Shown: piece by piece, positions 23,813 through 38,058 of the stretch
Position numbering within the stretch: position 1 is the first letter of the stretch
How the letters are laid out: every line of letters begins with the position of its first letter
Source: Candidatus Marinacidobacterales bacterium
GTDB lineage: Bacteria; Acidobacteriota; Vicinamibacteria; Marinacidobacterales; DATDRI01
Direction of reading: 5' to 3'
DNA: 64,000 bases
NCBI GenBank assembly: GCA_965226495.1
Contig: OZ245365.1
Span: forward strand, 3,968,001-4,032,000
Made by a program: the position numbers and the translations under genes
Notes under the pieces: generated by a model
The model's input: the letters and a program-made list of their open reading frames with translations, nothing else
What the model was told of the DNA's origin: nothing
The model's database searches: none

Positions 23813-23867
23813 GAGCGTCGCGCCTCGGTCAATCTCCATGTCATGGGATAATTGTAGATCCACTGAA

Positions 23868-23886: not shown

Positions 23887-23952
23887 TTTATTTCAACACG
23901 AAAAATTTCGTAAGTCATTGATTATGTGAGACTTTTGATCTGGCCGTCGAGG

Positions 23953-24831
23953 CTAGGGGAGCCGTAAAGCGTCCAATTTCACTTGAAGGTGCTCGGCCGG
24001 GGAAAGGTCGTAGTTGAACCCGCTCAATGCCCCCTGCCAACCTCCATACTCGGGATTGGGTAGGACGAACCACTTGCTCCCCCAGTACTCGTCGTACTCT
24101 GCGACTACCGCGTCCCGCTCGGCGAGAGACCTTCTCGTACCGGAGACGAAATCGTTCAAGTCATCTCCGAATAGCAGTAAGACCCGGTAACGAGTAGCGA
24201 TATCCGTGCGCCGTGACGACTTGTCGGAGATGTCCCACTCTTCTTTCTCACCCCGGGTGTAAAGCGTGTCCTCGTCCACTTTCAGGGGAAAACCAAACTT
24301 CTCCAGGTTGTTTCGGGTCGCCTCCTCGACTTCGTGCCGGCGATTCGTGAGGTACATCACCGTCACCCCTCGTTGGGCGGCGTATTTCGTGAACTCGAGA
24401 GCGCCGGGGATAGGGGGAGCCTTCTCTTTACGACACCATTCCTGCCAGTGAGGCCTTCGGAACTTGATGTTGTCGATGATGAGTTGCGCCTGGAAGTCCG
24501 AGTTGTCCAGGACCGTCTCGTCAACGTCTAGGACGATGGCCGGGGGAAGCTCGGAGGCTCCCTCTCCCTGCTCGAGTGACGCGGTCCAGTCAGGATCTTC
24601 GAGCGCAGCGTCCAGCATCGGCTTGGCCTGCCGGTAGATCTGCGTCGACAAGGCTCGCCGCTCGGCAGCTGTCTGGGTCCAGAGAACGCTGTTGAGAAGG
24701 TCCCAAGAGTATGGCGCCTGGGATTCATTCCGAGGAGGTCGTACGGACAAGAAGTGACTCGCCAGAAAGAGTGCTACCCCGAGTATCAGGACGATGACCA
24801 GTGACCCCGTTGATGTTGTCGAATTCCTCAT
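23953..24831 (-). CDS. Class C acid phosphatase / 5'-nucleotidase e(P4) family
   Basis: VLDVDETVLDNS, YLTNR, FGDDLNDF, LPNPEYGGW. Confidence 0.92.
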   Translation of the reverse strand: MRNSTTSTGSLVIVLILGVALFLASHFLSVRPPRNESQAPYSWDLLNSVLWTQTAAERRALSTQIYRQAKPMLDAALEDPDWTASLEQGEGASELPPAIVLDVDETVLDNSDFQAQLIIDNIKFRRPHWQEWCRKEKAPPIPGALEFTKYAAQRGVTVMYLTNRRHEVEEATRNNLEKFGFPLKVDEDTLYTRGEKEEWDISDKSSRRTDIATRYRVLLLFGDDLNDFVSGTRRSLAERDAVVAEYDEYWGSKWFVLPNPEYGGWQGALSGFNYDLSPAEHLQVKLDALRLP

Positions 24832-25027
24832 ATTCCTACCTCGGCTCCTCGTAGGTTTTGGGCATTCAATATAAAAGTAAACATATCATAATATAAGTCT
24901 TTTTAATAGAACAGTTTACTGTTATAACTGTTGATTAACTGTTGTTTGTCTGTTATCATACCAGGTCAGGATAACATGAGGACCCGATCATGACGTTTCG
25001 AGCACCAAAGGAAGGGGAAGGCGAGTA

Positions 25028-26047
25028 TTGAGGCCCAGGCGTGCCCGCGGGACCGGTGGGCTGTTCCAACGTGGCCGCATTTGGTGGATCAGCTACTCGA
25101 TCGCCGGTAAGCAACATCAGGAATCTTCCCGATCTACGGTCAAGAAGGAAGCTAAGCGGCTCGTCCGCGATCGTCTCTGGGCTGTTGATCAAGGGAAGCT
25201 CGCGGGCGGGAAGCCGATCACGATCGCGCAACTTGAACCGATGATCGAGAACGACCGAGAAATGAACAACAAGATCAACCCTAAGCGGTTTGCTCCTGCC
25301 TTCAAACATGTGAAGCGCCTCCTAGGAGCCAAGACGAAGGCTAGAGATATTTCCCAGTCATCAATCGAGATGTATAAGAGCGTCCGCCTCGCGAAGGACG
25401 CCGCGAGGGCTACGATCAACGCGGAGTTAGCTTGGCTCCGTCGCGGCTTGAAACTCGCACACCGACACGGGCGGATCGCTACTGTTCCCGAGATCGTTCT
25501 GTTGTCGGGTACCATAACTCGAACAGGTTTTTTCACCGATGAGCAATTCGCGGAGGTACTCCGGAAGTTGCCGGCGAAGTACCGCGATCCCGTCGAGTTC
25601 CTCTTTCTAACCGGCTGGCGGCGAGGTGAAGCCCTCGCGCTCGAATGGCGCAACGTGGATCGGAAGGCAAAAGTTATCAGGATCGAGGAAACGAAAACTC
25701 GGGAACCCCGAACGATTCCCTATGGTACGTTCCCGGAGCTTGTCGATGTTGTCGAGCGCCGCTGGCAGGCAAGGCCGAGGGGGGCCATCGATCCGAAGGT
25801 TTTCGGATCGATCAAAGGGGATCCCCTCTTAGACGCTTTCAAAAAAGCGAGCCGTGAAGCTGGGTTTCCTGGGTGGATGATCCACGACTTGCGGCGGTCA
25901 GCGGCTCGGAGAATGTTACGAGCGGGTATCCCTCAGCCGGTCATTATGAAGATCTGCGGCTGGAAATCTGACGCTGTGTTCCGCCGCTACGCGATCGTTG
26001 ACGAGGCTTTGATCGCTGAGGGTTTAGCGAAGCTCAGCAAGTCTTGA
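25028..26047 (+). CDS. int: Tyrosine recombinase / integrase
   Basis: TGWRRGE (R), ETKT (K), HDLRRS (HxxR), CGWKS, RRYAI (Y); N-terminal arm-binding-like region. Confidence 0.93.
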   Translation: MRPRRARGTGGLFQRGRIWWISYSIAGKQHQESSRSTVKKEAKRLVRDRLWAVDQGKLAGGKPITIAQLEPMIENDREMNNKINPKRFAPAFKHVKRLLGAKTKARDISQSSIEMYKSVRLAKDAARATINAELAWLRRGLKLAHRHGRIATVPEIVLLSGTITRTGFFTDEQFAEVLRKLPAKYRDPVEFLFLTGWRRGEALALEWRNVDRKAKVIRIEETKTREPRTIPYGTFPELVDVVERRWQARPRGAIDPKVFGSIKGDPLLDAFKKASREAGFPGWMIHDLRRSAARRMLRAGIPQPVIMKICGWKSDAVFRRYAIVDEALIAEGLAKLSKS

Positions 26048-26108
26048 AAACTGGACTTCGGAGATCAAGCGGATCATCGAGGAGGAGCCGGCTAGGTCGT
26101 AGCGCTTC

Positions 26109-27782
26109 CTATTCAGGACTTGCTTGGTTGATCTTTTTGAAACGTAGATATGAAGGGGCATCCGATGATCGAAACAGGATGAAGCGAAGTTCAGGACCAT
26201 CCGGCGAGACGAAACCCAACCCGCTCCCTTTCTTGACCCATTCCTCGATCGTCTTCCCTTGCACAAAGTCCCATTTCGGTTCCAACTTCATGATGTCCAC
26301 CCTGACACCGCGGTTTTGTATCTCTCCTTCGAACTTCTCGACGTTGTCGGCACTGAGCGCGGAGACGAGCTTGCCGGTAAACTTCCACGTTGCAGTCATT
26401 CGACTACCAGACACGGTTACAGTGAGATGCCTTTTCTCATTGACTTTCCAATCTCCCGCAAATTGTGAGCCGCCCGCAGAAGCAACGAAATACGCCTGAG
26501 CAAACTCTGAGTTGAATCGTCGCTGTTCCCGTGCGCTCTCAAGAAACCCTTGCTCCTGACTCTTCTCGTCCTCTTGCTTCTTCGAAAGTGCCGCCAGGGC
26601 GCTACCCACGTTGGGATGAACGTCTTCCTTTGACATCGCCTTACTGAGGATGGCAGAAGCGTGGCCTAGAAAGCCGGCGTTCATATACTTGTAGGCCAAA
26701 TTCGCCATTGCCAGGGTCTCACCCAACTCAGCCGCCTTGTCATAGCTAGACACTGACAGGATATGCATATCCTGTTCTTGATACTGTACGCCAAGGTTGT
26801 TTAAGGATATAGCCGCATCGGGAGAAAAGTCGAGGAGTGTCTTGTAGTGCAACAAAGCCAGTCTACCTTGCTTTGCCTCGCCGAAGGAGTAGGCGGCGCT
26901 GAAGAGAATCCCTTTGTCATTGGGTTTTTGCTCCAGGGCTTTCTCCAGAGCCAGTGCCCTCAGTTCATGGTCACCATTCATCTGAAATAATTCCGCCAAT
27001 CCTTCGTACAGCTCACTCGACTCGTCCTTGGATAATTCATTCATAAGCAAGGAAAATGCCCTTTCCTTTTTTCCAGCTCGAAAAAGGGCCTTCGATGCAC
27101 TTGTGAGTCCTAAAATACGCCCTTTCTGGTCCGTAGCATGCTGAGCAGAAGTTTCGTATGCCTCGGCCGCTCTACTATAGTCACCCGAGAAGCTATAACA
27201 GGACCCCACTAGACTGTAGGCGTTCGACTTCGGGTTGTCGGCCGCCAACTTCTCAAGTTGGGCAAGAGACTCGGTATCCTGCTTGTGCTTGAAACGCAGA
27301 AAGAGATAGAAAGCCTCATCATTGATTCTCTCTTTGGTCTCGCGGTCCGAGTCCTTCATCCGCGCATATGCTTGCTCCGCCTTCTCGAAGTCCCGCGCTT
27401 CGAATGCAATGAACATGTTAAAAAGTAAGCGTGAAGGCTCATCCTCGGTAGTGGGCTTGGTGGTGGTAGGTGTGGGCTCCTCGGGTGGTGGGGGCGGCTC
27501 TCGCTCCTGTTCGGGACTCGCCGGAGGCTCCTCCGGTACGTCGCTCGGTGGCGGGCCTAACTCCACCTCATGTTCGCCGTGCTTGTACCGGAACTTCCGA
27601 CGAAGTAATTCTTTAAGTAGTGCTCGAATCTCCACCCGAAAATATATGAGGGCGCAACCAACGACGATTGTGAGTACAAGAAGCCAGAGTGAGCCAATCG
27701 CCTCAATGATCTCTTTGCCGCTCGCAGTGTCAGCGGTCGCGTCCTGGCTGAAAAGGAGCACGGCAATAGAGGGAAACATCAC
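26109..27782 (-). CDS. Membrane-anchored TPR protein (element cargo)
   Basis: N-terminal TM, Pro-rich linker, multiple TPR-like helices (SLNNLGVQY), beta-rich C-terminus. Confidence 0.75.
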   Translation of the reverse strand: MMFPSIAVLLFSQDATADTASGKEIIEAIGSLWLLVLTIVVGCALIYFRVEIRALLKELLRRKFRYKHGEHEVELGPPPSDVPEEPPASPEQEREPPPPPEEPTPTTTKPTTEDEPSRLLFNMFIAFEARDFEKAEQAYARMKDSDRETKERINDEAFYLFLRFKHKQDTESLAQLEKLAADNPKSNAYSLVGSCYSFSGDYSRAAEAYETSAQHATDQKGRILGLTSASKALFRAGKKERAFSLLMNELSKDESSELYEGLAELFQMNGDHELRALALEKALEQKPNDKGILFSAAYSFGEAKQGRLALLHYKTLLDFSPDAAISLNNLGVQYQEQDMHILSVSSYDKAAELGETLAMANLAYKYMNAGFLGHASAILSKAMSKEDVHPNVGSALAALSKKQEDEKSQEQGFLESAREQRRFNSEFAQAYFVASAGGSQFAGDWKVNEKRHLTVTVSGSRMTATWKFTGKLVSALSADNVEKFEGEIQNRGVRVDIMKLEPKWDFVQGKTIEEWVKKGSGLGFVSPDGPELRFILFRSSDAPSYLRFKKINQASPE

Positions 27783-28514
27783 TGCTCTTTTGGAAGGGCG
27801 GAAAGGGTCTCCGCGTCGCAGAGCGTCCTTGGTTTTGCCTTTCCCATCGTAAAGAGAAGTCCTTCGTTGCTTTGAAATGTAAAAGCTACCACGGAAAGCA
27901 GGAAAAGCGGGTCTGCCGGTGGCGGGCGAGCCCTCACTTGGCCCCCCCGCCCTGCCCGGCTTTGCAGCGTAAGACGCCCTCGGGAACTAGCCTTCGCGGA
28001 CCTTCAGGCTGTCCGGGCAGCTCCACGGCTAGGCATTCTCTAGATAGAGACGAAATTTCCACTGCTGAACCTCCCCTATAGCCGGATCGTGGCCTCGCGG
28101 CTCCCCGGCTTAACTCACTAGGATGAGGACGCTACGTCCCGGCTCAAACTACAGCCAGAAAGGCATCTAAAAGCCACTTGCTGTTCCAAGAGAACACCGT
28201 GAGCACCGCTGATCGGAGTGATCGAGAACACGCCAACCGATGTAAACGTGTAACGAGGGTTCGTCGGAGTAACAAGAGCGTTAACGGGTAATACCCCCAA
28301 GCGAAATTTTGTTTCGCTTGACCACTTGCTCCAGAAATCCGCATCGATCCCCGTTGCTGTTCCGACAAAATCTTGCCGAAGCGTTGCGGTGATCGGAGAC
28401 GAAATCAGACCAGGAAAAAACGTCTCGATGTTATCCGCTGTTAGCGAGTTCGGCTTTCGGAGACGAAATCAGTAACGTCTGTCAAAGCGTTAGTTCGGCT
28501 TTCGAGAGCGGGAG

Positions 28515-29765
28515 TTAAGCTGCTGATTCCTCCGACGTGCCTTGCGGGAGAAGCTCGTTGCGAAGCTCCTCGACTTTCCTAGCGGCGAAGACATCCATCC
28601 TCACGCCGCGCCATTTGTTTGCGACGGCCAAGAGCACAGCGAACGAGAGTTTCATCGCGGCCTCCTCGGTGAAGAAGTGAGGAATGACCTTTGTGCGACG
28701 TTTGTGCTCTCCGAACGTGCGCTCAAGTAGATTCGACGTGCGAAGCCTTTTGTGATGCGCCGCAGGAAGGCGTAGCGCCTGAAGACACGCTTCGAGGGTC
28801 TCTTCCATGCACTTCATCGCGCTCGGGAATCGTTGACGGTACCGAGCGATCACCTCCCGACCCTTCTTCAGCCCTTGCTCGTAGCTGTTCGCATGGAACG
28901 ACTCAAGGATGGCCGCCTTGAGTTCGTCGCGCACTTCCTTCGGAGCCTTGCCCAGGATGTTCTCGAGGCGGTGCTTCTGGCAACGTTGCTTGAGGCTTCG
29001 AGGGAAGACCTCTGCGATCGCTTTGAGCACTCCAGGATTCCCGTCCGTCACGATGAGCAACGGCTCCCTCATTCCTCGGGCCACCATCTCCTGCAAGAAC
29101 CCCTTCCAGTTCTCGTAGGATTCTCGGTTGCCGACACCGATATGAAGAAGAACTCGCGTCCCATCAGCGCGATAGCCGGTCGCAACGAGGATGGGCTCTT
29201 TCCTCTCCGCTCCTTGGTGGTAGCGCAGGTACGTGCCGTCGAGCTCGAGATACAACAGCTTCTCGTTCGAGAGATCCCGTTTTCGAAACGCCTCGAAATC
29301 CTCCGACAGACACCGTGTGACCCGGCTCACCACCGACTTCGAGACACCCGCGCCGCTCAGCACGTCCGCGAACGTCGCCTCAATGTCACGCGTCGACATC
29401 CCGTGGACGTACATCCGCGCGATCAGTTCATCGAGTTTCTCGGTCCGGCTCACGTAGGCGTCGAGAATCTTTGACTGAAACACCTTCTCTGTTTCTCGTA
29501 CCTGCGGCACTTGCACCGTTACCGCTCCCTCGCCCGTGAGGACCCGATGCGACTCATACCCGTTGCGTCGTCCCTTCTCCTTCGTCGTTGCCGGAGCGTT
29601 CTCATAGTAGTTTCGACCCAACGCCTCCGTCACCTCGCGCTCCAACGCATATTGAAGCATCATCTGAGCTCCCGACCGGACGATCTCCGAGAGATTCATC
29701 TCCCCAAATACCAGTTGTTCCTCGAACTGCTTGAGCAATCGCTGACTCGGTAGTACCTTTCCCAT
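28515..29765 (-). CDS. tnp: IS256 (Mutator) family transposase
   Basis: RRNGY, MYVHGMSTRDI, LELDGT, VTDGNPG, QRCQKH, RTSNLLER. Confidence 0.95.
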   Translation of the reverse strand: MGKVLPSQRLLKQFEEQLVFGEMNLSEIVRSGAQMMLQYALEREVTEALGRNYYENAPATTKEKGRRNGYESHRVLTGEGAVTVQVPQVRETEKVFQSKILDAYVSRTEKLDELIARMYVHGMSTRDIEATFADVLSGAGVSKSVVSRVTRCLSEDFEAFRKRDLSNEKLLYLELDGTYLRYHQGAERKEPILVATGYRADGTRVLLHIGVGNRESYENWKGFLQEMVARGMREPLLIVTDGNPGVLKAIAEVFPRSLKQRCQKHRLENILGKAPKEVRDELKAAILESFHANSYEQGLKKGREVIARYRQRFPSAMKCMEETLEACLQALRLPAAHHKRLRTSNLLERTFGEHKRRTKVIPHFFTEEAAMKLSFAVLLAVANKWRGVRMDVFAARKVEELRNELLPQGTSEESAA

Positions 29766-29810
29766 GATGTATGGTTCGCGTTTGAGCTTGGGGAACCATA
29801 CATCGTTTTT
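28515..29810 (-). mobile_element. IS256-family insertion sequence
   Basis: Transposase plus a 12-bp hairpin GATGTATGGTTC/GAACCATACATC next to its start; canonical terminal IRs not recognisable. Confidence 0.85.
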
Positions 29811-29925
29811 CTTTGAGAAGGTTGTTCCGGCGGTGCTCGATGAGACGTGCAACCCGCCATCTTTAAACAGAGTTGGTGCTGCTGCCATAATAATTTCCTT
29901 TACCGTGCCCCCCGCGAATTTTCTC

Positions 29926-31164
29926 TTAGCGCCCGGAAAAACCCGGCAAAAAAGTTATGAAGTGGTGACGCCGGTAAGAACGCTGCCGCTCGATGTCGTG
30001 TTCGATCACAGCGCGAAGAACCGTTTCGTCTCTGCTAACACCAGAAACAACGGTGCCGGTTGAATCGTTGTACGCTGCGCCGTCGAAAGCATCGATCGAG
30101 AGATCGGTGCTCATGGCGTTAACAAACTCTGACTTCAGCCAAAAGAAAATATCCTGGCGAGCATCTTCGTTACCTGTGGTAGCGAACCGATTCGACTGCA
30201 CAACTGGATACCCCAGAAGCGTTCCGCGTTCGAACATCTCCTTACCGAAAATGTTAGTGGAATCTTCCGTTGCGCCGACGATGAGTGCCAAGTCAAGAAA
30301 AACCGCCGGACTCATGGCCCACGTATAATCCGACTGGCGAGCCGAGGTAGCGTTGCTACCGAGCACGTCGTTCACAAGTGCCTTTAAATCGGTGATCCGA
30401 TTCGCTTGGCTCGTGCCGGTTTGCGCTTGCGTGTTATCAGCGTGGACAAGATTAGCCAAGCCGCGAGGTTTGTTGGGCTCGCCGTTGCTGAAAAAAGCGG
30501 TTTCGTCGAGCTTCTTCGACATAACGCGGCTCAAGTCGTCCCTAACCCAGGCGTCAGCCGAGGGGTTAGAAAAACGCAAGAGGGAGTTTGATGTCGGAGT
30601 GATCGCAACCAACTTTTTAAAGCTGAAGTCGAGCGAACCCGACACGCCTTGAGAAGCGTTAGTGACAGTGCTTTCCGAGGTGTACGCCGCCGTTGCACCC
30701 GAGGTGCTCCGCGGAATCGACAGTTGCCCGCTGGGCATGTCCAACCGGCGCGAGTTCTGCAAGAACACGTTTTCCTCGGTGAGATAATGAATAAAATCCG
30801 TGGAGACCGGAGTCGGCACGAGGGATCCGCCCGCGCTGGGACTGCCGGCGGTTAGAGCTTTGATAACCCTATCGTCCGAATCCCAACCTGCACGTTTCGC
30901 CTCGAAGACGCCACGGTTAATGTCGCCCTTGCCGAGCCCGATCACCCGGGCATACCGAGCAAACTCGCATCCCCTTTCATACTTGCGATCGGCTTTATAC
31001 TCCGAATCCTTGCGAGCGCCTTCGAGGATTGGTCCGGTATAGTCCTCACCGTATTTTTCTTTGTACGGTGCGAGAAAATCATCGACCGGATTGCCGGCTT
31101 CAATTGCCGCTTTGAGAATGGTTGTCAGATCGTCCTCGGAAATAAAATCTTTTCGTTTTCCCAT
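29926..31164 (-). CDS. HK97-fold phage major capsid protein
   Basis: Delta-like N-terminus, AGGSLVPT, GEPNKPRGL, WAMSP, TLLGYPVVQSN, RDETVLRAVIEHD; small C-terminal frameshift (natural end likely ..SGSVLTGVTTS, stop at 29955). Confidence 0.92.
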   Translation of the reverse strand: MGKRKDFISEDDLTTILKAAIEAGNPVDDFLAPYKEKYGEDYTGPILEGARKDSEYKADRKYERGCEFARYARVIGLGKGDINRGVFEAKRAGWDSDDRVIKALTAGSPSAGGSLVPTPVSTDFIHYLTEENVFLQNSRRLDMPSGQLSIPRSTSGATAAYTSESTVTNASQGVSGSLDFSFKKLVAITPTSNSLLRFSNPSADAWVRDDLSRVMSKKLDETAFFSNGEPNKPRGLANLVHADNTQAQTGTSQANRITDLKALVNDVLGSNATSARQSDYTWAMSPAVFLDLALIVGATEDSTNIFGKEMFERGTLLGYPVVQSNRFATTGNEDARQDIFFWLKSEFVNAMSTDLSIDAFDGAAYNDSTGTVVSGVSRDETVLRAVIEHDIERQRSYRRHHFITFLPGFSGR

Positions 31165-31404
31165 TGTGGGGTATTCCTTTCAAATTAAAATTGCTGATAA
31201 AGTGTTTTTTGTTTTAGTGCTCGCGTCGCTTCGAGTATTAAACCGGGTAATTGCTTTCGCGTTCCGCCGGGGTTTCCGTCGAGGGGGTGAGGACTGGGGA
31301 GCGTTTCGAGCTACCCGAAAATCTCCGGCATTATCGCCGTTGTTACTTCGTCCGCTCTCAAATAAACAGAATCGCGGATTGCTTGGATCTGAAGTCGAAA
31401 CTTT

Positions 31405-32196
31405 TTATCTTTCGTCATGCGGCGTCCGAGTTCCTTGTTGTCTAGGATTCCGGTTTCGTAGAAGATTCCCACGAGGGCCGCCTCCCAATATTGCTTTCGG
31501 ACAAATCTTTTTACTTCGTGCGCTTTCAGGACAAATCTTTTTACTTCGGCTTTCTTTCGGGGAGCGCGGGTCCTCCGGATCGAAAGCCGCCGCGAGGGCT
31601 GCCGGGACTGCCGGCACTCCAACAAGGGAAATCTCGTGTATTGAAACCTTCTCGAAATCGATCCCCCCTTCGTCGTTTGGTGTCGCCTCTCCAACGGATG
31701 TGAAGCCGATCGAAAGGGCTCGCACCGCACTTTTCGGGGAGCGCGGGTCCTCCGGATCGAAAGCCGCCGCGAGGGCTGCCGGGACTGCCGGCACTCCAAC
31801 AAGGGAAATCTCGTGTATTGAAACCTTCTCGAAATCGATCCCCCCTTCGTCGTTTGGTGTCGCCTCTCCAACGGATGTGAAGCCGATCGAAAGGGCTCGC
31901 ACCGCACCCGCTTGCAAAAGTTTTAGAGCCTCGTCCGCTTGCGACACGCCCTCGGTCAAAGTGAACCGGACGAGTAGCTCCCCGGTTTCTACGCGGAGAG
32001 AATCGATCTTGCCGATCGGCGCGGTCGGATCGTGACCCCATAGGAGCACCGGGTTGCGCTGTATCTCTTTTAGATCCCACCCGAGGACTCGATCACCCAC
32101 GCGATCGAGTTCGTGATTGCTGGCAACGGCTTCGAAACTGCCCGGTGTTATCTCTTTCGCCGGGGCGGCGGTTGCCATTTTGTTAAACTTTTCCAT
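31405..32196 (-). CDS. HK97-family prohead protease
   Basis: LDRVGDRV, NPVLLWGHD..PIGK, ALSIGF, EISLVGVPA; internal 59-aa duplication; real C-terminus may be in the frame ending at 31311. Confidence 0.9.
   Translation of the reverse strand: MEKFNKMATAAPAKEITPGSFEAVASNHELDRVGDRVLGWDLKEIQRNPVLLWGHDPTAPIGKIDSLRVETGELLVRFTLTEGVSQADEALKLLQAGAVRALSIGFTSVGEATPNDEGGIDFEKVSIHEISLVGVPAVPAALAAAFDPEDPRSPKSAVRALSIGFTSVGEATPNDEGGIDFEKVSIHEISLVGVPAVPAALAAAFDPEDPRSPKESRSKKICPESARSKKICPKAILGGGPRGNLLRNRNPRQQGTRTPHDER
31555..31907. repeat. 177-bp-period tandem duplication in the protease gene
   Basis: 31555-31730 matches 31732-31907; adjacent 30-bp-period duplication at 31493-31548. Confidence 0.9.
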
Positions 32197-32425
32197 TTTC
32201 TACATTCCTTTCGGGTGGGCTTTCGAGGGCATACAAATCTTCGAGATTGCACACTTCTATGATGTCCTTACAAATTAGTCTTAATAGTTCTTCTATAGCG
32301 ATCGTTCGCTCTTGTTTGGATAGTGTCGCAACCCAAGCGACGAATTTTTGACCGTCCGGTGTATCCAGAGCTTCTTCTATAACCGGGATGATGATTTCTT
32401 TCAGTTCTTGTTCTTGATTCGACAT
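32183..32425 (-). CDS. Hypothetical protein (element)
   Basis: 80-aa acidic helical ORF overlapping the protease start. Confidence 0.55.
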   Translation of the reverse strand: MSNQEQELKEIIIPVIEEALDTPDGQKFVAWVATLSKQERTIAIEELLRLICKDIIEVCNLEDLYALESPPERNVENGKV

Positions 32426-32511
32426 TTCAGATCACCGCCGCCCGCGCCGCGAGTTCTTTTTCTCTGGCTTCGATGTTATCGATGCGGGTTTCGAGATCCG
32501 CGAGACGCTCG

Positions 32512-32739
32512 TTAAAGATTGCTAATAGCTCCGCGGTTGCTTCGATCTGTTCTTTCAACGTCGCCCCCGTTGGTGATGCTTCCCGGTCCGGCGCTCACGG
32601 GACGGGCGGGTCTTACCCCCATCGGGGTATACGATCTCGTAACCTGGCGGAATCCCTCCGAGAACATCGACGCCGGCTTCGATTTGCCGCCCACGAGGGG
32701 CTGGGCGGGGCTCTGTGGCTGTTTCTCTTTCTTCTTCAA
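32512..32739 (-). CDS. Hypothetical protein (element)
   Basis: 75-aa ORF with GAGGTG RBS, co-oriented in the operon. Confidence 0.35.
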   Translation of the reverse strand: MKKKEKQPQSPAQPLVGGKSKPASMFSEGFRQVTRSYTPMGVRPARPVSAGPGSITNGGDVERTDRSNRGAISNL

Positions 32740-32745
32740 ATAAGA

Positions 32746-32970
32746 TCACCTCTTATCCCCCCATTTGTTCCCAGTGATCGCTACTTGGTGACATTCGTAA
32801 CAGACGCGGTAGGCTTTCCCCTCCGCGTCGGTAACGTCGTAATAGTTCCGGGCATCCCCGCATCGGAACATCGAGATCAGTTTGCGGTCCGGCGTGAAAC
32901 GCCCTTGGCTACACTTCCAGCAATCGAACCCCGCGGGGTGTTGACAGAGTTGTTCCGGGTCGAAAATCAA
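32746..32970 (-). CDS. Small Cys-rich (zinc-finger-like) protein
   Basis: CWKC..CYECH motifs; AAGGAG RBS. Confidence 0.55.
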   Translation of the reverse strand: MIFDPEQLCQHPAGFDCWKCSQGRFTPDRKLISMFRCGDARNYYDVTDAEGKAYRVCYECHQVAITGNKWGDKR

Positions 32971-33377
32971 ATTTTGCTCCTTTCCCTTGTTTTGCTTCTG
33001 TTTTTCTTCAGAACCGTTTCAGAACCCGAACGGTCGAGCATCTAACTTGTTGAATCGAAACCACATATAATTTTTGCCCGAGTTCTGTAGGGCAAATCGA
33101 AGGTAAAAGGGTGTATGGTGCCGGGCTCGCCAAGAGGGGCACCCCATCCGGGGTTTTTCGGCCCCTACCGCTGTTTATGCACCGATATCTAAGGTAATAC
33201 TTTAAATATATCTTATAAATCTACGTCACCAACGCCCAGCGGCCGGCGCGGCGGTGGGGCGGGGCGGGGGGCGGGACTTGGCGTCCGGACTTGGCTGGGT
33301 AGCTCTTACCCGCACCCACTTTCCCGCTTGGGGACTACCTCGCGGTGAGTCCGCGGGGTTAGCCCAGCCACCTACGC

Positions 33378-33610
33378 TGTCTACCCCTGGGGGCTATCTT
33401 GTAATGGGCTTGTCTACCGCGAGGGCTACCGTTTTTAGCGGTTGTCTACCTTGTCTACACTGTCACCGAGCACTTAGAGTAGTCTGATAATCATGTAGAT
33501 TTATAATTAGTCTCTACAACTCTTATCTATAGTAGACAGTGTAGACATCATAGACAGTCCTATAAATACTACCGATCCCTCGTAGACAGGGGGGCTACAA
33601 AGAGTAGACA
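33378..33610. other. Putative replication origin with oppositely oriented iterons
   Basis: 4x TGTCTAC then 4x GTAGACA around an AT-rich core, immediately downstream of the helicase. Confidence 0.7.
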
Positions 33611-33615
33611 GTGGT

Positions 33616-35160
33616 TCACTCGAACCGCCTCCACCCCGAAACCCGCTCCCCGCTGCCCGTTCGTATCTGTTTGACTCGGTGCCAACCGAGCCTGACCATA
33701 GCGTCTGAAATCCGCCTCGCGGCTTTCGGTTCCCGCTTCGAGATATCCGCGAGGCCAACGATCGTGTATAGCTCGTCGTTCGTAACTTTCCACCCCGGTT
33801 TATCAACCCGATGATTTCGGAACCCGTCCGTGAGCGCATACTGTTTCTCGGGTCGGCCGTCCCCATTCATAATCGCGGCGAGAATAGTTTCTTCCCAGGG
33901 GTCTACCTTGTGCCGTCGGTCTTGCTCGTCAGCCGATAGACCCCACAGTTTTTTGGGGAGCGCGATCGATTCCTCGCGTCGCGCATAAGCCTCCGCCCAC
34001 AGTTGATCTTTGTTCTTTTCTATCCAGTCGCGATCCATTTTCGTAACTCGAACGGGTGCCCATCTTCGGTTGCCGGTGGGGTCCGAGAGGTATGCCTCTT
34101 TGTTCGTGGTGCCCATGATCGTAAACATCCGAGGCCGGCGGGTAACTTCCCTGCCGTATGCTAACCGAGACGAGTCGACTTGACGCGAAAAGAAATTTTT
34201 AACGCGATCCGAGTCGCGATTGTTTCCGAATAGCTCCGCGCACTCCAACATGAGAACGCCAGCGGTTCTCTCGATGATAACTTTGCTGTCCGCTCCAAGG
34301 GGGAGATCATCCGAAAACCACGACGGCTTGGGGCAAAGTAACTTGAGCGCCGTTGACTTGAAACAACCCTGCGGGCCTTCGAGCACGACGAAGAGATCAA
34401 ACTTTTTTCCCGGCTCATAGACCCTTTGTACCGTCGCCATTAGTGGCAATCGCGAGTAAGCTTGATTTAGCTCAGTGTCGGAGGCCCCCCCGGCATCGAT
34501 CAACCAACGATCGATCCGTGATACCCCATCCCAGGTCGGCAACGCCTCGAACCACTCTTTGACAGGGTTAAACGTCTTATCCCTCGCGATCGAATCAACA
34601 AAGTCAAAAAAGTTTGATCGCTGCGGTAGGAACCCAAACTTATCGTCGACTGCAATGCGCAGCCCGGAGATCAAGCTATCGTCGAGAATCTTCGATCGCC
34701 CGTTTTGGTTTAGGATCTTTTCGGTTCGGAATTCATCATAGGAGAGTGAAACGCCCAACTTTTCGAGAGCCCTTCGGACGTTCTCTGGTTTGTTTGCTTC
34801 GATCTTGCCACTCGGACTTGTTATGAAACCTTTTATCGTGCCGCCGAAGAGTTCAAATAGTGCGATCGCGGTTTTCCGGTGTCCTCGTGTTGATTTTAGT
34901 TTCGAGAATCCTTCGATCGGTTCCCCTTCGGGGATCCTGTAAGTCGAGTCGAATTCCAAAACGCGATCCTTAACGTTAGGGTCGCCGGCGTCGTCTGCGG
35001 CAATCCGCATCGCGGCTTCCGCCATTTCGAAGGAGCATCCCAGTTCTCGAAGCGTCCCTGCGACCTTTAAAACCCATTCGTGACGCGAGCCGGGTTCCGG
35101 GTATGCAGACACAAGAATGGCTGCGATTTGGTTTTTATCTGGTTTTTTCTTCTCTTCCAT
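33616..35160 (-). CDS. VapE-domain (virulence-associated E) replication helicase/primase-like protein
   Basis: FNPVKEWF..WDGVSRID, Walker A GPQGCFKST, GTTNKEAYLSDPTGNRRW, DQLWAEA; RBS before ATG 35160 (track start 35226). Confidence 0.9.
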   Translation of the reverse strand: MEEKKKPDKNQIAAILVSAYPEPGSRHEWVLKVAGTLRELGCSFEMAEAAMRIAADDAGDPNVKDRVLEFDSTYRIPEGEPIEGFSKLKSTRGHRKTAIALFELFGGTIKGFITSPSGKIEANKPENVRRALEKLGVSLSYDEFRTEKILNQNGRSKILDDSLISGLRIAVDDKFGFLPQRSNFFDFVDSIARDKTFNPVKEWFEALPTWDGVSRIDRWLIDAGGASDTELNQAYSRLPLMATVQRVYEPGKKFDLFVVLEGPQGCFKSTALKLLCPKPSWFSDDLPLGADSKVIIERTAGVLMLECAELFGNNRDSDRVKNFFSRQVDSSRLAYGREVTRRPRMFTIMGTTNKEAYLSDPTGNRRWAPVRVTKMDRDWIEKNKDQLWAEAYARREESIALPKKLWGLSADEQDRRHKVDPWEETILAAIMNGDGRPEKQYALTDGFRNHRVDKPGWKVTNDELYTIVGLADISKREPKAARRISDAMVRLGWHRVKQIRTGSGERVSGWRRFE

Positions 35161-35329
35161 CAGTGTAGAACCTCTTTCGTTAAAAGTTAGTGCCGGAACG
35201 ACTTTCGGAAAAATCCGGGGGGGCATTGCAATGCCCCCACAGATCGAAAGAGGAACCGACGGATGTCACACGAGCGAAGAAAGGGATTTCTTGCCCTATA
35301 TACTAGTGATGTCTTTTGCCCAGAAGATT

Positions 35330-35596
35330 CTAGGCGGCGTTGGATTTTTTCTTCTGGTAGGCGCGGCGCTTCGAGGCTCTCATTTTCTCGGGGTTAGCTT
35401 GCCGCCACTCGCGGTTATGTTCCGGGTTAGCTTCCCGCCACGCGGCTTGGATAGCTTTCCGACGAGCTTTTTTTTTCGCTTCTTTTTCCCGCTCAGCCTT
35501 TTGTTCGGGGGTTTCGTTCGAGGCTCGCCCCTCCGCCTCACGAATGTTTGTATCCCACCAGGCATGGCGCTCCCCGAAGTGCCGCTGGCGGCTCAC
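35330..35596 (-). CDS. Small basic protein with WR(E/Q)ANPE repeats
   Basis: AAWREANPEHNREWRQANPEK; overlaps the alpA stop. Confidence 0.55.
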   Translation of the reverse strand: MSRQRHFGERHAWWDTNIREAEGRASNETPEQKAEREKEAKKKARRKAIQAAWREANPEHNREWRQANPEKMRASKRRAYQKKKSNAA

Positions 35597-35781
35597 GAAG
35601 CTACCGCCTGCGACGAAATCCAGGCGAGAATCTCAGATTCGAGCCAAGCTACGCGGGAAGTGCCGGCTATCTTTCGACGCTTCGGAGCGAGGCCCTTTTG
35701 TTCGAGAGTCCACCAGGTAGACCGGGAGACGGAGGTGAGGTATTTTCTCGCCGTCTCATCGATAAGCCGATCTTGTGGCAC
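35593..35781 (-). CDS. alpA: AlpA-family regulator / excisionase
   Basis: SVSRSTWWTLEQKGLAPKRRKI..RVAWLESEILAWI. Confidence 0.88.
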   Translation of the reverse strand: MPQDRLIDETARKYLTSVSRSTWWTLEQKGLAPKRRKIAGTSRVAWLESEILAWISSQAVAS

Positions 35782-36097
35782 TCTCCCCGCCTCCTTTCTT
35801 GGTGAATAGTTGGGCCGCGCATTTTCTTACCTTCTTTTTTATACTTTTAGCCGAGACCCGACGTCAAATTATTTATTCCAGATTTTTTGACAGGGTTCCC
35901 CGTTCGACTGTTGTTAAGATTGTTGTTTACGAGCGCGTCCGAGGCTGTCCGAGGCGGTTGGAGCGGCCGGCGGCCGCGACTGGCGGGGCTTTTCGCTGCA
36001 ATAGGTTAGGCGGATCAGTCGTAAACAATATAGAATGGAACCGGCCGGAAGCCAAAGAGGAGGCCGTCCTCCCGAATTTCCGTCCCGAGCACTGACC

Positions 36098-37030
36098 ATG
36101 AGGGATCTAATACCCGTTGGTGGGCCTACCGCGAGGTGGAGCCTTGCCCTGCTCGTCCTCGTCAGCACTGCTTGTTCCCTCAAGGCGAAAGCAGTCAACA
36201 CCCTATCCGAGGTGCTAGCCGAGTCAGAAGTGGTCTATCTCTCGGATGAGGATCCGGAGCTCGTCGCCGAGGCCCTGCCGTTCAATCTAAAGACGATTGA
36301 GACTCTTCTCCAGTCGAGCCCCGACCATCGAGGGCTGCTTCTTTCCGCAACCACCGGCTTCACTTTTTACGCCTACGGTTTCGTGGAGCCCGAGGCCGAT
36401 CGCGTCGAGGACGAGGACTTCAAGCGTGCGGAAGAGATCCGTCGTCGAGCCGCCAAACTCTACTGGCGCGCTTACCGTTACGGGATCCGTGGGTTAGAAG
36501 TGAACCACCCCGGCTTCGGGAACACCCTCTCGGTCGAGCCCGAAGAGACCGTCGCACCGCTCGAGGTGGACGATGTACCGCTGACGCTATGGACCGCCGC
36601 GGCACTCGGAGGCGTCATCGGGGTCTCCAAGGATGACCCAGAAGCCACAGCGGACATTGCAGTGGTCGGAGCGCTCCTCGAGCGATGCCTCGACCTGGAC
36701 CCGAGCTACGGTGAAGGGATTCTGTACGAATTGCTTGTGATTTATGAATCCCAGCGATTCGGGGGATCACCGGAGACGGCGCGCGAGTACTATCGCCGGG
36801 CGTTGGAGCTTTCCCATGAGACCCGTGCCTCCACGTGGTTGCTCTGGGCCGAGAACTTCTCGATCCCGGACCAGAATGTGGAGGAGTTCAAAGAGCTACT
36901 CGACAAAGTTGTCGCATTCGACGTCGACCAGTACCCCGAAGATCGACTCCTGAACATTCTCGCTCAGCGGCGCGCTCGATGGTTGATGGGACGCATCGAT
37001 GAGCTGTTTCTGGAAGGTGACACGCCGTGA
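36098..37030 (+). CDS. tatT: TRAP transporter TatT component (TPR lipoprotein)
   Basis: Lipobox STAC, DEDPELVAEALPFNLK, LNILAQRRARWL; precedes dctP. Confidence 0.85.
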   Translation: MRDLIPVGGPTARWSLALLVLVSTACSLKAKAVNTLSEVLAESEVVYLSDEDPELVAEALPFNLKTIETLLQSSPDHRGLLLSATTGFTFYAYGFVEPEADRVEDEDFKRAEEIRRRAAKLYWRAYRYGIRGLEVNHPGFGNTLSVEPEETVAPLEVDDVPLTLWTAAALGGVIGVSKDDPEATADIAVVGALLERCLDLDPSYGEGILYELLVIYESQRFGGSPETAREYYRRALELSHETRASTWLLWAENFSIPDQNVEEFKELLDKVVAFDVDQYPEDRLLNILAQRRARWLMGRIDELFLEGDTP

Positions 37031-38058
37031 CCAATCGATCGGTTTCGCGCCTGCTGTTCACGCTGCTGATCTTTCTCACCTTAGGCTTCCTATCGACCCT
37101 CGACGCGAAGGTCGTCATCCGCCTGGGAACCCTGGCGCCCAACGGCTCCGCCTGGCACAAGATCTTCAAACAAATGGGGGCCGATTGGCGGAACTCGACC
37201 GACGGGGAGCTCGTCCTTCGGATCTACGCCGGCGGCGTCGTAGGAGACGAAGGGGAAATGATTCGCAAGATGCGGATCGGCCAGCTCCAATGTGCCGCCA
37301 TCTCGAATTCTGGTGTCGCCGAAATCGATCCCGCCGCGTACGCCCTGATGCTTCCGATGATGTTCGATAGCTACGAGGAATGGGATTACGTGCGCCAAAA
37401 AGTGAATCCGGCCTTAGAGGCAAAACTCGAGGCAAAAGGATTCAAAGTGCTCGCCTGGTCCGATGTGGGTTGGGTCTACTTCTTTACAAAAGACCCCCTC
37501 CGGAGGCCCACCGACCTGCGAAAGATGAAGCTGGCCGCATCGGCAACCGAAGCCGCCACCGTCGAGATCATGAAGTGGGCCGGTTTCAATCCGGTACCGA
37601 TCTCCTCCGTGGATATGGCAAGCGGTCTGCAGACCGGTCTCATCAACGCGATCTATCTTCCCGTGATCTTGGCCGAAGGCTCGCAGTTCTACCGGCACGT
37701 TCGCAACATGACCGATATGAAGTGGGCTCCACTACAAGGAGCTCTCGTGATGCACGATCGCGGGTGGAAGAAACTGGATGCCGGTCAGCAAGCCACGATC
37801 ACCCGCATCGCGAGACAAGTGGGCACCGATCTTAGGAAAGACACGCGTCGCCAAGAACAATTATCTTTGGAAGCGATGAAGAAACGCGGGCTCGAGATGG
37901 TGTCGGTGAGCGATGAAGACGTCGCCGCTTGGCGACAAACAGTAGAGAAAGCCTATCCCAAAGTCCGCGAAAAGCTAGTCCCTCCGGAAATGTTCGATCG
38001 AGTCAAGAAGCTGCGCGATGAGTTCCGAGCGACGCAGGGGAAATCCAGCCAGCCCTAG
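37027..38058 (+). CDS. dctP: TRAP substrate-binding protein DctP (TatP type)
   Basis: LGTLAPNGSAW, YAGGVVGDEGEMIRKMRIGQL. Confidence 0.9.
   Translation: MTNRSVSRLLFTLLIFLTLGFLSTLDAKVVIRLGTLAPNGSAWHKIFKQMGADWRNSTDGELVLRIYAGGVVGDEGEMIRKMRIGQLQCAAISNSGVAEIDPAAYALMLPMMFDSYEEWDYVRQKVNPALEAKLEAKGFKVLAWSDVGWVYFFTKDPLRRPTDLRKMKLAASATEAATVEIMKWAGFNPVPISSVDMASGLQTGLINAIYLPVILAEGSQFYRHVRNMTDMKWAPLQGALVMHDRGWKKLDAGQQATITRIARQVGTDLRKDTRRQEQLSLEAMKKRGLEMVSVSDEDVAAWRQTVEKAYPKVREKLVPPEMFDRVKKLRDEFRATQGKSSQP

What the first reader, a model, noticed from the sequence alone, without database searches (positions are those of the whole stretch)
24867..36032. Satellite-like element with its own capsid, maturation protease and tail tube but no portal or terminase
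Seen: ~9.8 kb excluding IS256, with gene order alpA - small ORF - VapE helicase - iteron ori - small ORFs - HK97 protease - major capsid - tail-tube-like gene - TPR cargo, and a convergent integrase. No portal, terminase, connector, tape-measure or lysis gene is recognisable. Protease, capsid and tube genes are close neighbours with no room for such genes. Known: PICIs have int/alpA/pri-rep; capsid-forming PICIs encode portal and terminases but no tails; P4 has no major capsid gene. Inference: a satellite type that supplies only the two high-copy virion subunits (capsid and tube) and borrows low-copy parts from a helper siphophage, or uses them to interfere with helper assembly.
Basis: partly seen in the sequence, partly recalled or inferred. 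Interest (0 to 1): 0.85.

Follow-up and report, generated by a model that had tools for sequence, protein, structure and literature searches.

The report
Mini phage-like island with capsid and tube
A 9.7-kb mobile island carries its own integrase, replication genes and just three virus-particle genes (capsid, capsid protease, tail-tube-like protein), so it looks like a parasite of a tailed phage, but no second example was found.

Summary
Between two 7-bp CAATATA repeats (24867-24873, 36026-36032) lie a tyrosine integrase, a TPR protein, a tail-tube homolog, an HK97 major capsid protein (MCP), an S78 prohead protease, four small ORFs, an iteron origin, VapE, a small ORF and AlpA. No portal, terminase, neck, tape-measure or lysis gene was found.

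Contigs of four public runs change the picture. All four support a form without the IS256 piece, the 177-bp protease duplication and the capsid frameshift; that form is about 9.7 kb with all three structural genes whole. Two runs also hold the precise empty site, so the island is present or absent within populations.

The MCP (33-40% identity) and tube (50-54%) come from a siphophage lineage in which the two genes lie 3.4-7.0 kb apart (19 of 19 loci) and which lacks VapE (5 of 5 records). The host genome has no other MCP, no portal and no TerL by the families searched.

Best reading (0.45): a PICI-like satellite with a minimal module for its own shell plus a tube paralog. Packaging, circular forms and a helper are unshown. 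New variant of a known kind; interest 0.5.

The parts
24867..24873 (.). Left att core, CAATATA
   Evidence: Read directly. It is the edge of the empty-site joint 24866->36026, which shares 7 nt on both sides.
25028..26047 (+). Tyrosine integrase, 339 aa, convergent with the main operon
   Evidence: PF00589 E 4e-21; phrog_1 E 1.3e-44.
26109..27782 (-). 557-aa TPR protein of unknown function (cargo); the N-terminal hydrophobic stretch and proline-rich linker are my reading of the sequence
   Evidence: phrog_31809 E 9e-37. TPR Pfam hits fall below their cut-offs. No PADLOC hit. The nearest Atlas cluster is an unnamed TPR family, score 0.98.
28139..28459 (-). 3' part of the tail-tube-like gene (whole natural form is P0024, 153 aa)
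   Evidence: window:28142-28435 is 100% identical to P0024. Contigs add 8 nt behind 28435, which restores the frame. phrog_4574; tube fold.
28460..29818 (-). Stretch specific to this assembly: an internal piece of an IS256-family element (28514-29816) plus 54 garbled bases
   Evidence: PF00872 E 6e-77. The other genome copies are about 1400 bp with inverted repeats. This copy lacks 21 and 49 nt at its two ends and 25 nt inside. Contigs of X3, X5 and X6 have 42 nt here instead.
29819..29888 (-). 5' part of the tail-tube-like gene, with a ribosome-binding site upstream
   Evidence: Sequence. Its first 23 residues equal the start of P0024.
29926..31164 (-). HK97-family major capsid protein. The window ORF is 412 aa with a frameshifted tail; the natural form is P0001, 408 aa, with its stop at 29955-29957
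   Evidence: PF05065; TIGR01554. P0001 is 100% identical over 95% of the query. All 4 runs have 17 extra nt behind 29991, which restore the P0001 C-terminus.
31311..32196 (-). S78/HK97 prohead protease. The natural form is about 227 aa and ends at 31311. The window copy carries an exact 177-bp duplication and a further repeat of about 26 nt (31529-31731)
   Evidence: PF04586; TIGR01543. Duplication. Joint 31528->31732 in 4 of 4 runs. Frame reading. H55 and S103 are invariant among 6 aligned proteases.
32183..32425 (-). 80-aa acidic ORF that overlaps the protease start by 14 nt; function unknown
   Evidence: No Pfam, PHROG (best E 0.099), NCBIfam or PADLOC family.
32427..32970 (-). Three small ORFs: 43 aa that reads as a coiled coil (my reading), 64 aa, and 74 aa with two CxxC pairs; functions unknown
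   Evidence: ORFs. No significant family.
33378..33610 (.). Putative replication origin: GTAGACA iterons, 4 in each orientation, around an AT-rich centre, just downstream of VapE
   Evidence: 8 of the window's 11 copies lie here; 2.6 expected in the whole window. Sequence.
33616..35226 (-). VapE-type helicase/replicase, 514-536 aa depending on the start codon; no Prim-Pol domain recognised
   Evidence: PF05272 E 1.5e-59; phrog_256 E 2e-72. The nearest database relatives are at most 43% identical, and many of them also carry PF09250.
35330..35596 (-). 88-aa highly charged ORF, doubtful as a gene
   Evidence: No family. A 1-nt deletion at 35468 in contigs of X3 and X5 would shift its frame.
35593..35781 (-). 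AlpA-type excisionase/regulator, 62 aa, first gene of the leftward operon
   Evidence: PF05930 E 4e-8, 33.4 bits against a cut-off of 21; phrog_2790 E 5.9e-14.
36026..36032 (.). Right att core, CAATATA
   Evidence: Read directly; edge of the empty-site joint.

Best explanation
The island is an integrative, PICI-like phage-satellite candidate of about 9.7 kb.

Shown:
- It sits between 7-bp direct repeats and is present or absent in natural populations.
- It carries an integrase, an AlpA regulator/excisionase, a VapE replicase next to an iteron origin, and one leftward operon. The operon ends in an HK97 prohead protease, an HK97 MCP and a tail-tube-fold protein, followed by a TPR cargo gene.
- Its three virion genes descend from a siphophage lineage in which MCP and tube are separated by adaptor, portal, neck and main-tail genes. 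Its replication module does not come from that lineage.

Inferred:
- On infection or induction of a related helper siphophage, AlpA and Int excise the island, and VapE replicates it from the iterons.
- The protease and the MCP (which has its own N-terminal scaffold-like domain) build island-specific shells on the helper's portal.
- The helper's terminase fills those shells, and the helper's neck and tail complete them. Because the portal-neck-tail contacts would all be helper-to-helper, an MCP plus protease is the smallest set that gives a satellite its own capsid.
- The tube paralog either co-assembles into tails or competes with the helper's tube protein.
For: - Borders and polymorphism: empty-site joint 24866->36026 in 2 of 4 runs, and depth inside the island is about half that of the flanks in those two runs.
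- All lesions of the window copy are absent from contigs of 4 of 4 runs, and whole proteins exist in the database: P0001 and P0024.
- Backbone: int, AlpA and VapE and iterons. This matches three of the five PICI core components listed in PMC10085698 (passages read).
- Structural genes. Protease H55 and S103 are invariant among the six aligned proteases.
- The island's MCP keeps 25 of 28 columns that are invariant in 19 homologs. Its tube keeps 40 of 45.
- Mosaic origin: 19 of 19 loci with both genes have them 3.4-7.0 kb apart, and L152 has adaptor, portal, neck and a main tail protein between them. 0 of 5 such phage records hold VapE.
- No fragments of other phage genes lie in the island, and no related prophage lies in the genome. 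The genome has one PF05065 match, no PF04860 and no PF03354.
- Precedent: SaPIbov5 Ccm is an MCP homolog that reshapes helper capsids (abstract of PMC8569155). cf-PICIs build their own capsids (PMC10085698; PMC10690885 introduction).
Against: - No sibling element with this architecture was found.
- No circular or go-back junction was listed, and depth inside the island never exceeds the flanks. There is therefore no sign of excision-replication or packaging.
- No TerS, cos or pac site and no helper phage were identified.
- The island's MCP and tube lose more family-invariant residues (3 and 5) than control family members do (0-1 and 0-2). That fits relaxed constraint as well as a changed role.
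- A tail gene is a 'forbidden' component in the SatelliteFinder PICI and cfPICI models (PMC10085698).
- In L152 the homolog is the second of two tube-fold genes, so its role in the tail is itself unknown.
Confidence: 0.45

Rival explanations
1. Assembly-interference (defence) island. The integrative element moves by some other route or rarely. Its MCP, protease and tube paralogs act as poison or decoy subunits that spoil capsid and tail assembly of infecting siphophages of the related lineage. This would protect the host population, and the island itself would not be packaged.
For: - Satellites, prophages and PICIs are known to carry tail-assembly-blocking systems (abstract of PMC11364771).
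- The island's MCP changes three residues that are invariant in 19 homologs, including R135L and P142D. Its tube changes five. This is as expected for altered co-assembly.
- No packaging function (TerS, TerL, portal) is present.
- In L152 the tube homolog is a paralog of the main tail protein.
Against: - No PADLOC family matched any of the 8 proteins tested.
- A complete MCP-protease pair with an intact catalytic His and Ser is more than a poison subunit needs.
- Interference and satellite transfer are not exclusive in known satellites.
Confidence: 0.2
2. Passive remnant. An int-alpA-VapE integrative island picked up a piece of a prophage's structural region by recombination. Protease, MCP and tube are leftovers without a present function.
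For: - The architecture is unique among everything searched.
- The island's proteins lose slightly more invariant residues than family members do.
- The nearest relative of int and VapE in the phylum (L181) carries different cargo. That suggests the cargo of such islands is variable.
Against: - All three genes are full length in the natural form.
- The junctions are clean, with a ribosome-binding site before the tube gene and no fragments of portal, adaptor or tape-measure genes.
- The catalytic residues are kept.
- Three separate deletions would have had to spare exactly these three genes.
- The island shows no SNPs across its own genes in contigs of four studies. That argues it is young or constrained, though it cannot tell which.
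Confidence: 0.2
3. A complete but minimal virus whose portal, terminase and tail parts are among the unrecognised small ORFs or the TPR protein.
For: Six ORFs (43-88 aa) and the 557-aa TPR protein have no assigned function.
Against: - Portal and TerL proteins of tailed phages run to several hundred residues (general knowledge). The unassigned ORFs are 43-88 aa.
- The TPR protein matches TPR families and phrog_31809, not a portal or terminase.
- There is no tape-measure or lysis gene.
Confidence: 0.03
4. An artefact of this assembly, that is, a chimeric join of phage and chromosomal reads.
For: The window copy does hold assembly-specific errors or very recent lesions: the IS piece without ends, two tandem duplications and six small deletions.
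Against: Independent short-read contigs from four studies cover the whole island and both junctions with the chromosome without SNPs in its genes. One X5 contig of 14.6 kb spans 23524-38000.
Confidence: 0.02

Closest known systems
Phage-inducible chromosomal islands (PICIs) of the alpA type, as modelled in SatelliteFinder (PMC10085698)
   Same: - Size lies within the 7-20 kb that one abstract gives for phage satellites (PMC13376191, search listing).
- An integrase sits at one end.
- An AlpA-led operon holds a primase/replicase-type gene.
- A capsid-related gene lies downstream, with cargo next to the integrase.
   Different: - No TerS was found.
- The capsid-related genes are a full HK97 MCP with its protease, not a small capsid-morphogenesis gene.
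- It carries a tail-tube homolog, which the PICI model forbids.
- The host genome's phylum is not named by the tools. The paper found more than 99.9% of PICIs in Proteobacteria and Firmicutes.
Capsid-forming PICIs (cf-PICIs)
   Same: The satellite encodes its own HK97-type MCP and prohead protease beside int, alpA and a replicase.
   Different: cf-PICIs have 11 core components, including portal, head-tail adaptor, head-tail connector, TerS, TerL and HNH, and no tail genes (PMC10085698; PMC10690885 introduction). Here 5 of the 11 are present (int, alpA, replicase, MCP, protease), and a tail gene is added.
SaPIbov5 and its Ccm protein
   Same: A satellite without portal or terminase carries a homolog of the helper's HK97-fold capsid protein and uses it to change the helper's capsid (abstract of PMC8569155).
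   Different: Ccm works together with the helper's own capsid protein and protease. Here there is a whole MCP with a scaffold-like N-terminal region, its own protease and a tube gene. There is no experimental evidence for this island.
Satellite P4
   Same: Integrase, an AlpA-like regulator, a large primase-helicase with an origin, a size near 10 kb, and dependence on a helper for all or most virion parts.
   Different: P4 redirects P2's capsid protein with the external scaffold Sid and has no capsid or tail gene (as the introduction of PMC10690885 describes). No psu, delta or sid relative was recognised here.
Streptomyces satellites MulchRoom and MiniFlayer (PMC10690885)
   Same: These satellites carry part of a virion gene set, and MiniFlayer even has a tail component (a tail fibre).
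   Different: They encode terminases, portal, MCP, scaffold and adaptor but no replication genes. That is the opposite split from this island.
Siphophage lineage of viral contigs L152, L154 and L155
   Same: Source lineage of the structural genes: MCP 33-40% identical, tube 50-54%, protease about 28-32%.
   Different: These are full phages with adaptor, portal, neck, main tail protein, chaperone and tape measure, and no VapE. MCP and tube lie 5.0-7.0 kb apart.

Membership tests
PICI (five core components, PMC10085698) | Integrase | tested here: met
   PF00589 E 4e-21, phrog_1 E 1e-44.
PICI (five core components, PMC10085698) | Regulation module (alpA, merR or stl) | tested here: met
   PF05930 above its cut-off; phrog_2790 E 6e-14.
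PICI (five core components, PMC10085698) | Primase-replicase module | tested here: inconclusive
   The VapE domain PF05272 is present with iterons beside it, but no primase domain was recognised. SatelliteFinder's own pri-rep profiles were not available.
PICI (five core components, PMC10085698) | Capsid morphogenesis gene | tested here: inconclusive
   A full MCP and protease are present. Whether they match the PICI profile was not testable.
PICI (five core components, PMC10085698) | Small terminase (TerS) | tested here: not met
   No terminase family matched any tested ORF in Pfam, PHROGs or NCBIfam. A very divergent TerS among the 43-88-aa ORFs cannot be excluded.
PICI and cfPICI models | No tail or holin gene (forbidden components) | tested here: not met
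   A tail-tube homolog is present. Whether SatelliteFinder's tail profiles would hit it was not tested.
PICI and phage satellites in general | Induced, packaged and transferred by a helper phage | not testable with these tools
   Contigs list an empty site but no circular junction. No virome data were examined.
cf-PICI (11 core components) | Portal, head-tail adaptor, head-tail connector, TerL, TerS, HNH | tested here: not met
   None was found in the island. The genome has no PF04860 or PF03354 match. ORFs of four related phage loci hit only protease, MCP and tube in the island.
cf-PICI (11 core components) | Own MCP and prohead serine protease | tested here: met
   TIGR01554 and TIGR01543 are above their cut-offs.
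Intact tailed prophage | Terminase, portal, neck, tape measure, tail tip and lysis genes | tested here: not met
   Same calls as above. The island is about 9.7 kb, with about 7.9 kb taken by the listed ORFs.
HK97-family major capsid protein (PF05065 / TIGR01554) | Profile match over the full domain and conserved family residues | tested here: met
   101 bits against a cut-off of 27.5, covering profile positions 89-383 of 385. 25 of 28 homolog-invariant columns are kept.
Siphophage tail tube protein | Tube/Hcp fold, homology to annotated major tail proteins, position beside the chaperone and tape-measure genes in phages | tested here: met
   phrog_4574. Foldseek probability 1.0 to lambda gpV, the NF5 tube, 80alpha and Hcp, with TM scores about 0.4-0.56. 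BFVD hits to TP901-1-type major tail proteins. Rhodococcus phage major tail proteins. Synteny in L152. Ring or tube formation was not tested.
IS256-family insertion sequence | Transposase plus terminal inverted repeats and a target duplication | tested here: not met
   The transposase PF00872 is present. Both terminal repeats found in the 9 other copies are missing, and no target duplication flanks the piece. The piece is absent from natural contigs.

The most novel reading that the evidence does not exclude
This would be a new class of phage satellite, a 'minimal capsid-former'. It encodes only the shell-building pair (HK97 MCP with its own scaffold-like domain, plus prohead protease) and a tail-tube paralog. 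It borrows the portal, terminase, neck, tape measure, tail tip and lysis functions from a helper siphophage. Because every portal-neck-tail contact stays helper-to-helper, this is the smallest gene set that gives a satellite a capsid of its own size. The tube paralog would be the first satellite-encoded tail-tube subunit.
Probability: 0.3. Interest if true: 0.8.

Novelty: new variant of a known kind. Interest (0 to 1): 0.5.

Why it matters
Known satellites fall into two groups. Some reshape the helper's capsid with small proteins (P4, SaPIs, PICIs). Others carry a full head-and-packaging set (cf-PICIs and the Streptomyces satellites). An island that keeps only MCP, protease and a tube protein would sit between these two. 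It would show which virion parts a parasite must own to control capsid size.

It would also show that detection rules which forbid tail genes can miss real satellites.

Separately, the case is a warning about the assembly. The three 'lesions' that made the island look decayed (IS piece, duplication, frameshift) are not in the natural population.

Tried and rejected
- No tRNA gene lies in the window, so the island is not integrated at a tRNA.
- Rfam on 24000-37000 at E up to 0.1 gave no match.
- Promoter-like and terminator-like sites occur at chance level: 6 against 5.2 and 14 against 14.6. No operon map can be drawn from them.
- ACTGTTR: 4 of the window's 7 copies lie near the two island ends, but the total is not above chance, since 31 of 100 shuffles reach 7. 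I kept this only as a passing note.
- PADLOC gave no hit for 8 proteins.
- The TPR protein had no tblastn match in 50,697 phage records and no viral-contig relative. The Atlas gave only an unnamed TPR cluster.
- Genome-contig scans with the MCP and with the tube alignment found no relative. The tool notes that the window's own or very near genomes may be left out.
- Matching contig lengths of VapE homologs against those of the MCP and tube homologs (11,751 and 16,908 nt) found no shared contig. P0005 (MCP) and P0030 (tube) do share a contig length of 16,908 nt. That contig could not be read, and it could be an ordinary phage like L152.
- The protease had no relative of solved structure by sequence.
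- RNA runs X15-X20 hold 6-28% of the sampled words of 27800-32300. I therefore draw nothing from them on expression or habitat.
- The read laying joints 27544->36254 (one run, side 21) and 28977->24259 (38 letters between) were not followed. They look like repeat or IS effects.
- Complex prediction was not used. At most 4 copies are allowed, so a hexameric ring could not be posed, and a pass would not separate the rival readings.
- I considered an encapsulin-like compartment and a tailocin, and rejected both. The first does not account for the protease-MCP pair next to a tube gene inside a mobile island. The second needs tape-measure, baseplate and other tail genes that are absent.

Limits of the evidence:
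- Logan contigs come from a word graph, so an exact 177-bp tandem repeat could collapse in them. The contigs also lack a neighbouring repeat of about 26 nt whose repeated part is shorter than the word. The difference is therefore not only collapse.
- Supplementary files of the papers were not opened. The SatelliteFinder profiles and model files in them bear on the membership rows marked inconclusive.

Full report
**1. What is in the window**

All genes are on the minus strand except the integrase.
- AlpA, 35593-35781: PF05930 E 4e-8; phrog_2790 E 6e-14.
- An 88-aa ORF.
- VapE, 33616-35226: PF05272 E 1.5e-59.
- An iteron field (section 2).
- Four small ORFs of 74, 64, 43 and 80 aa.
- HK97 prohead protease, 31405-32196: PF04586; TIGR01543 at 62.1 bits against a cut-off of 59.
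- HK97 major capsid protein (MCP), 29926-31164: PF05065; TIGR01554 at 101 bits against a cut-off of 27.5.
- A gene split by an IS256-like piece (section 4).
- A 557-aa TPR protein, 26109-27782: phrog_31809 E 9e-37.
- A convergent tyrosine integrase, 25028-26047: PF00589.

No ORF matched a portal, terminase, connector, tape-measure or lysis family in Pfam, PHROGs or NCBIfam. The unassigned ORFs are 43-88 aa.

**2. Origin and borders**

GTAGACA occurs 11 times in the 64-kb window. Eight copies lie in 33378-33610, four in each orientation around an AT-rich centre, directly after the VapE stop. Only 2.6 copies are expected in the whole window, and 0 of 100 shuffles reach 11.

The island is flanked by CAATATA at 24867-24873 and 36026-36032. 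There is no tRNA gene in the window. The site lies between an acid-phosphatase gene and a gene that starts at 36035 or later.

**3. Independent reads change the picture**

I laid the Logan contigs of four runs from four studies (X1, X3, X5, X6) on 23000-38000. No SNP is listed inside the island's own genes. The window nonetheless differs from all four runs by indels.
- Eight nt are missing behind 28435.
- 11, 9, 11 and 6 nt are missing at 29903-29921.
- 17 nt are missing behind 29991.
- 6 extra nt are present at 27881.
- 203 nt (31529-31731) are replaced by one letter in the contigs.
- The stretch 28460-29818 is replaced by 42 nt in bridging contigs of X3, X5 and X6. In X1 two contigs stop at the same two places, with 26 and 46 unaligned letters. 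That is compatible with the same bridge but does not show it.

What these differences mean:
- The 17 nt restore the C-terminus of database protein P0001 (408 aa, 100% identical otherwise). That C-terminus matches those of the homologs.
- The 203-nt difference removes the exact 177-bp in-frame duplication found, plus a second repeat of about 26 nt. The protease then reads on in the frame of ORF 31311..31907, giving about 227 aa.
- The 'IS256' in the window is only an internal piece (28514-29816). The nine other genome copies are about 1400 bp with terminal inverted repeats. This copy lacks 21 and 49 nt at its ends and 25 nt inside, and it has no target duplication.

With no SNPs inside the island's genes but many indels, these lesions are most simply errors of this assembly or very recent events in one clone. 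The natural island is about 9.7 kb: 11,159 - 1,317 + 62 - 202 - 6, from the table. Its MCP, protease and downstream gene are whole.

A caution applies. Word-graph contigs can collapse an exact 177-bp tandem repeat. The accompanying 26-nt difference cannot be explained that way.

**4. The tail-tube-like gene**

The gene after the MCP starts at 29888 behind a ribosome-binding site and continues after the foreign piece. Its whole form is P0024, 153 aa, with nine relatives at 51-84% identity.

Evidence for a tube protein:
- phrog_4574 'major tail protein' matches at E 6e-4 (P0024), 2e-9 (P0030) and 1.7e-7 (P0032), nearly end to end for P0032.
- An AF2 model (pLDDT 79.6) matches Hcp proteins and siphophage tail tubes in the PDB: Sf11, NF5, 80alpha and lambda gpV. 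Probability is 1.0, E is 1e-4 to 6e-3, and TM scores are about 0.4-0.56.
- In BFVD the model matches 'major tail protein TP901-1' and 'tail tube protein' entries.
- tblastn hits annotated major tail proteins of Rhodococcus phages at about 30% identity, E 2e-7.

In the related phage contig L152 the homolog lies between a 258-aa major tail protein (phrog_9522) and the chaperone and tape-measure genes. Its N-terminus resembles that of the 258-aa protein. It is therefore a tube-fold paralog. Whether it is the principal tube subunit is not known.

**5. Where the parts come from**

*The MCP.* It has no relative in 60 related genomes or in one genome per species by close-match scan. Its nearest relatives are 38-42% identical.

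*MCP loci from metagenome and viral contigs*. Of the 140 loci fetched, 139 match P0001 by tblastn.
- None holds a relative of the island's int, VapE, TPR or small ORFs.
- 98 have at least 1 kb downstream of the MCP.
- 16 hold a tube-family gene, always 3.4-6.5 kb downstream.

*Viral contigs with close tube relatives (50-54% identity).* There are four. Three also hold the MCP (33-40% identity), 5.0-7.0 kb upstream of the tube gene. In all, 19 of 19 loci with both genes keep them far apart. The island has them about 75 nt apart.

*Gene order in L152.* Protease, MCP, two unknown genes, adaptor, portal, Neck1, connector, major tail protein, tube paralog, chaperone, tape measure.

*No VapE in these phages.* None of five such phage records holds a VapE domain; one of the five is rated 100% complete.

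*The VapE side.* Its nearest relatives are at most 43% identical, and many carry an extra Prim-Pol domain. Nine of 400 other genomes of the phylum have a relative at E up to 1e-20. I fetched 8 of those 9 loci; the ninth lay on a 2.1-kb contig. None holds MCP, protease or tube, and 2 hold an integrase relative. None of 11 viral VapE loci holds them either.

The island is therefore a mosaic. A satellite-like backbone is joined to three genes from a siphophage structural region, with clean junctions.

**6. The host genome offers no helper**

The host genome holds one PF05065 match (this gene), no PF04860 portal, no PF03354 TerL and one VapE. ORFs of at least 100 aa from four related phage loci hit only protease, MCP and tube within the island. 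Two further ORFs hit unrelated places elsewhere in the genome.

**7. Is the island alive?**

*For.*
- A contig that joins 24866 directly to 36026, sharing the 7-nt core, is present in X6 (depth 16.5) and X3 (depth 2). Depth inside the island is about half that of the flanks in these two runs: 13-20 against 26-42, and 5-6 against 8-15. It equals the flanks in X1 and X5. The island is thus gained or lost precisely in nature.
- All genes are whole.
- Protease H55 and S103 (the SxGF serine) are invariant among six aligned proteases. That these are the catalytic pair of the S78 family is recalled, not tested.
- The MCP keeps 25 of 28 columns invariant in 19 homologs. The tube keeps 40 of 45.

*Against.*
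- Control family members lose only 0-1 (MCP) and 0-2 (tube) such columns, so the island's copies are somewhat more deviant. The MCP changes are E123D, R135L and P142D.
- No go-back (circular) joint is listed, and depth never exceeds the flanks.

**8. Mechanism**

The layout matches the PICI plan described in PMC10085698 (passages read): int at one end, an AlpA-led operon with a replicase and origin, morphogenesis genes, and cargo next to int.

It fails cf-PICI membership, with 5 of 11 core components. It lacks a recognisable TerS. It holds a tail gene, which both models forbid.

My best reading (0.45) is a helper-dependent satellite whose MCP and protease build shells of their own size on the helper's portal.
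- I recall, without having tested it here, that HK97 MCP plus protease suffice for prohead assembly.
- The helper's terminase, neck and tail would do the rest.
- SaPIbov5 Ccm, an MCP homolog that reshapes helper capsids, is the nearest precedent (abstract of PMC8569155).
- The tube paralog may join or disturb tail assembly. Tail-assembly interference is common in satellites (abstract of PMC11364771).

Rivals:
- A pure interference island (0.2).
- A passive remnant (0.2).
- A complete minimal virus (0.03).
- An assembly artefact (0.02, refuted).

**9. Novelty**

[quoted passage not shown] The Streptomyces satellites carry full head and packaging sets, and one carries a tail fibre (PMC10690885, passages). 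Archaeal SRCEs pair plasmid replicons with incomplete morphogenetic modules (bioRxiv 10.1101/2025.02.15.638363, passages).

My searches of the held literature listed no title or abstract describing a satellite with only MCP, protease and a tail-tube gene. I read abstracts and passages of only a few of the listed papers, so this is not proof that none is in print.

I recall that small mycobacterial prophage-like elements with int, primase, protease and capsid genes exist and may be what the NAR paper counts as mycobacterial PICIs. This was not tested here.

Verdict: a real, well-bounded, probably active island and a new variant of the PICI-like kind.

Supplementary files of the papers were not opened.

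Noticed in passing
window 28435-29991 and 31528-31732: This assembly differs from short-read contigs of four studies by a cluster of indels (8, 11, 9, 11, 6 and 17 nt missing; 203 nt extra; a 1359-nt IS-containing stretch in place of 42 nt), with no SNPs inside the island's genes. This suggests local misassembly or poor polishing around a repeat.
   Followed up: yes
window 28514-29816; L002-L010: The IS256-family element has at least 9 near-full copies (94-98% identical, about 1400 bp with inverted repeats) plus fragments in the 6.3-Mb genome. In the four metagenome runs its summed word depth is 164-2351 against 5-42 for the flanking chromosome, so it or its relatives are very abundant there.
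   Followed up: partly
L181 (G225:C43:138000-155234), about 5500-13000: The closest int (32% identity) and VapE (37-40%) relatives in the phylum lie together in another island. There the 701-aa primase-VapE gene is followed by small ORFs and a 261-aa protein that matches phrog_206 'head scaffolding protein' (E 6e-15). This may be a second satellite-like island with a different capsid-related gene.
   Followed up: partly
L152 9206-10450: The related siphophage has two adjacent tube-fold genes (258 aa, phrog_9522; 150 aa, phrog_4574) with similar N-termini. Its portal gene lies downstream of the MCP rather than upstream of the protease.
   Followed up: partly
window 35468: A 1-nt deletion in a T run inside the 88-aa ORF appears in contigs of X3 and X5 but not of X1 and X6. 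Either the ORF is not a gene or it varies by frameshift.
   Followed up: no
window 24918-24944 and 35907-35913: ACTGTTR repeats lie just inside both island ends, three at the left and one at the right. They could be integrase arm sites, but the motif is not enriched in the window as a whole.
   Followed up: partly
window 33616-35226: The island's VapE protein lacks the Prim-Pol domain (PF09250) that many of its nearest database relatives (645-706 aa) carry. Its first 200 or so residues match no family.
   Followed up: no
window 36026-36037: The right att core ends 2 nt before the ATG at 36035 of the neighbouring 331-aa ORF. Integration therefore replaces the sequence directly upstream of that possible start codon.
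   Followed up: no
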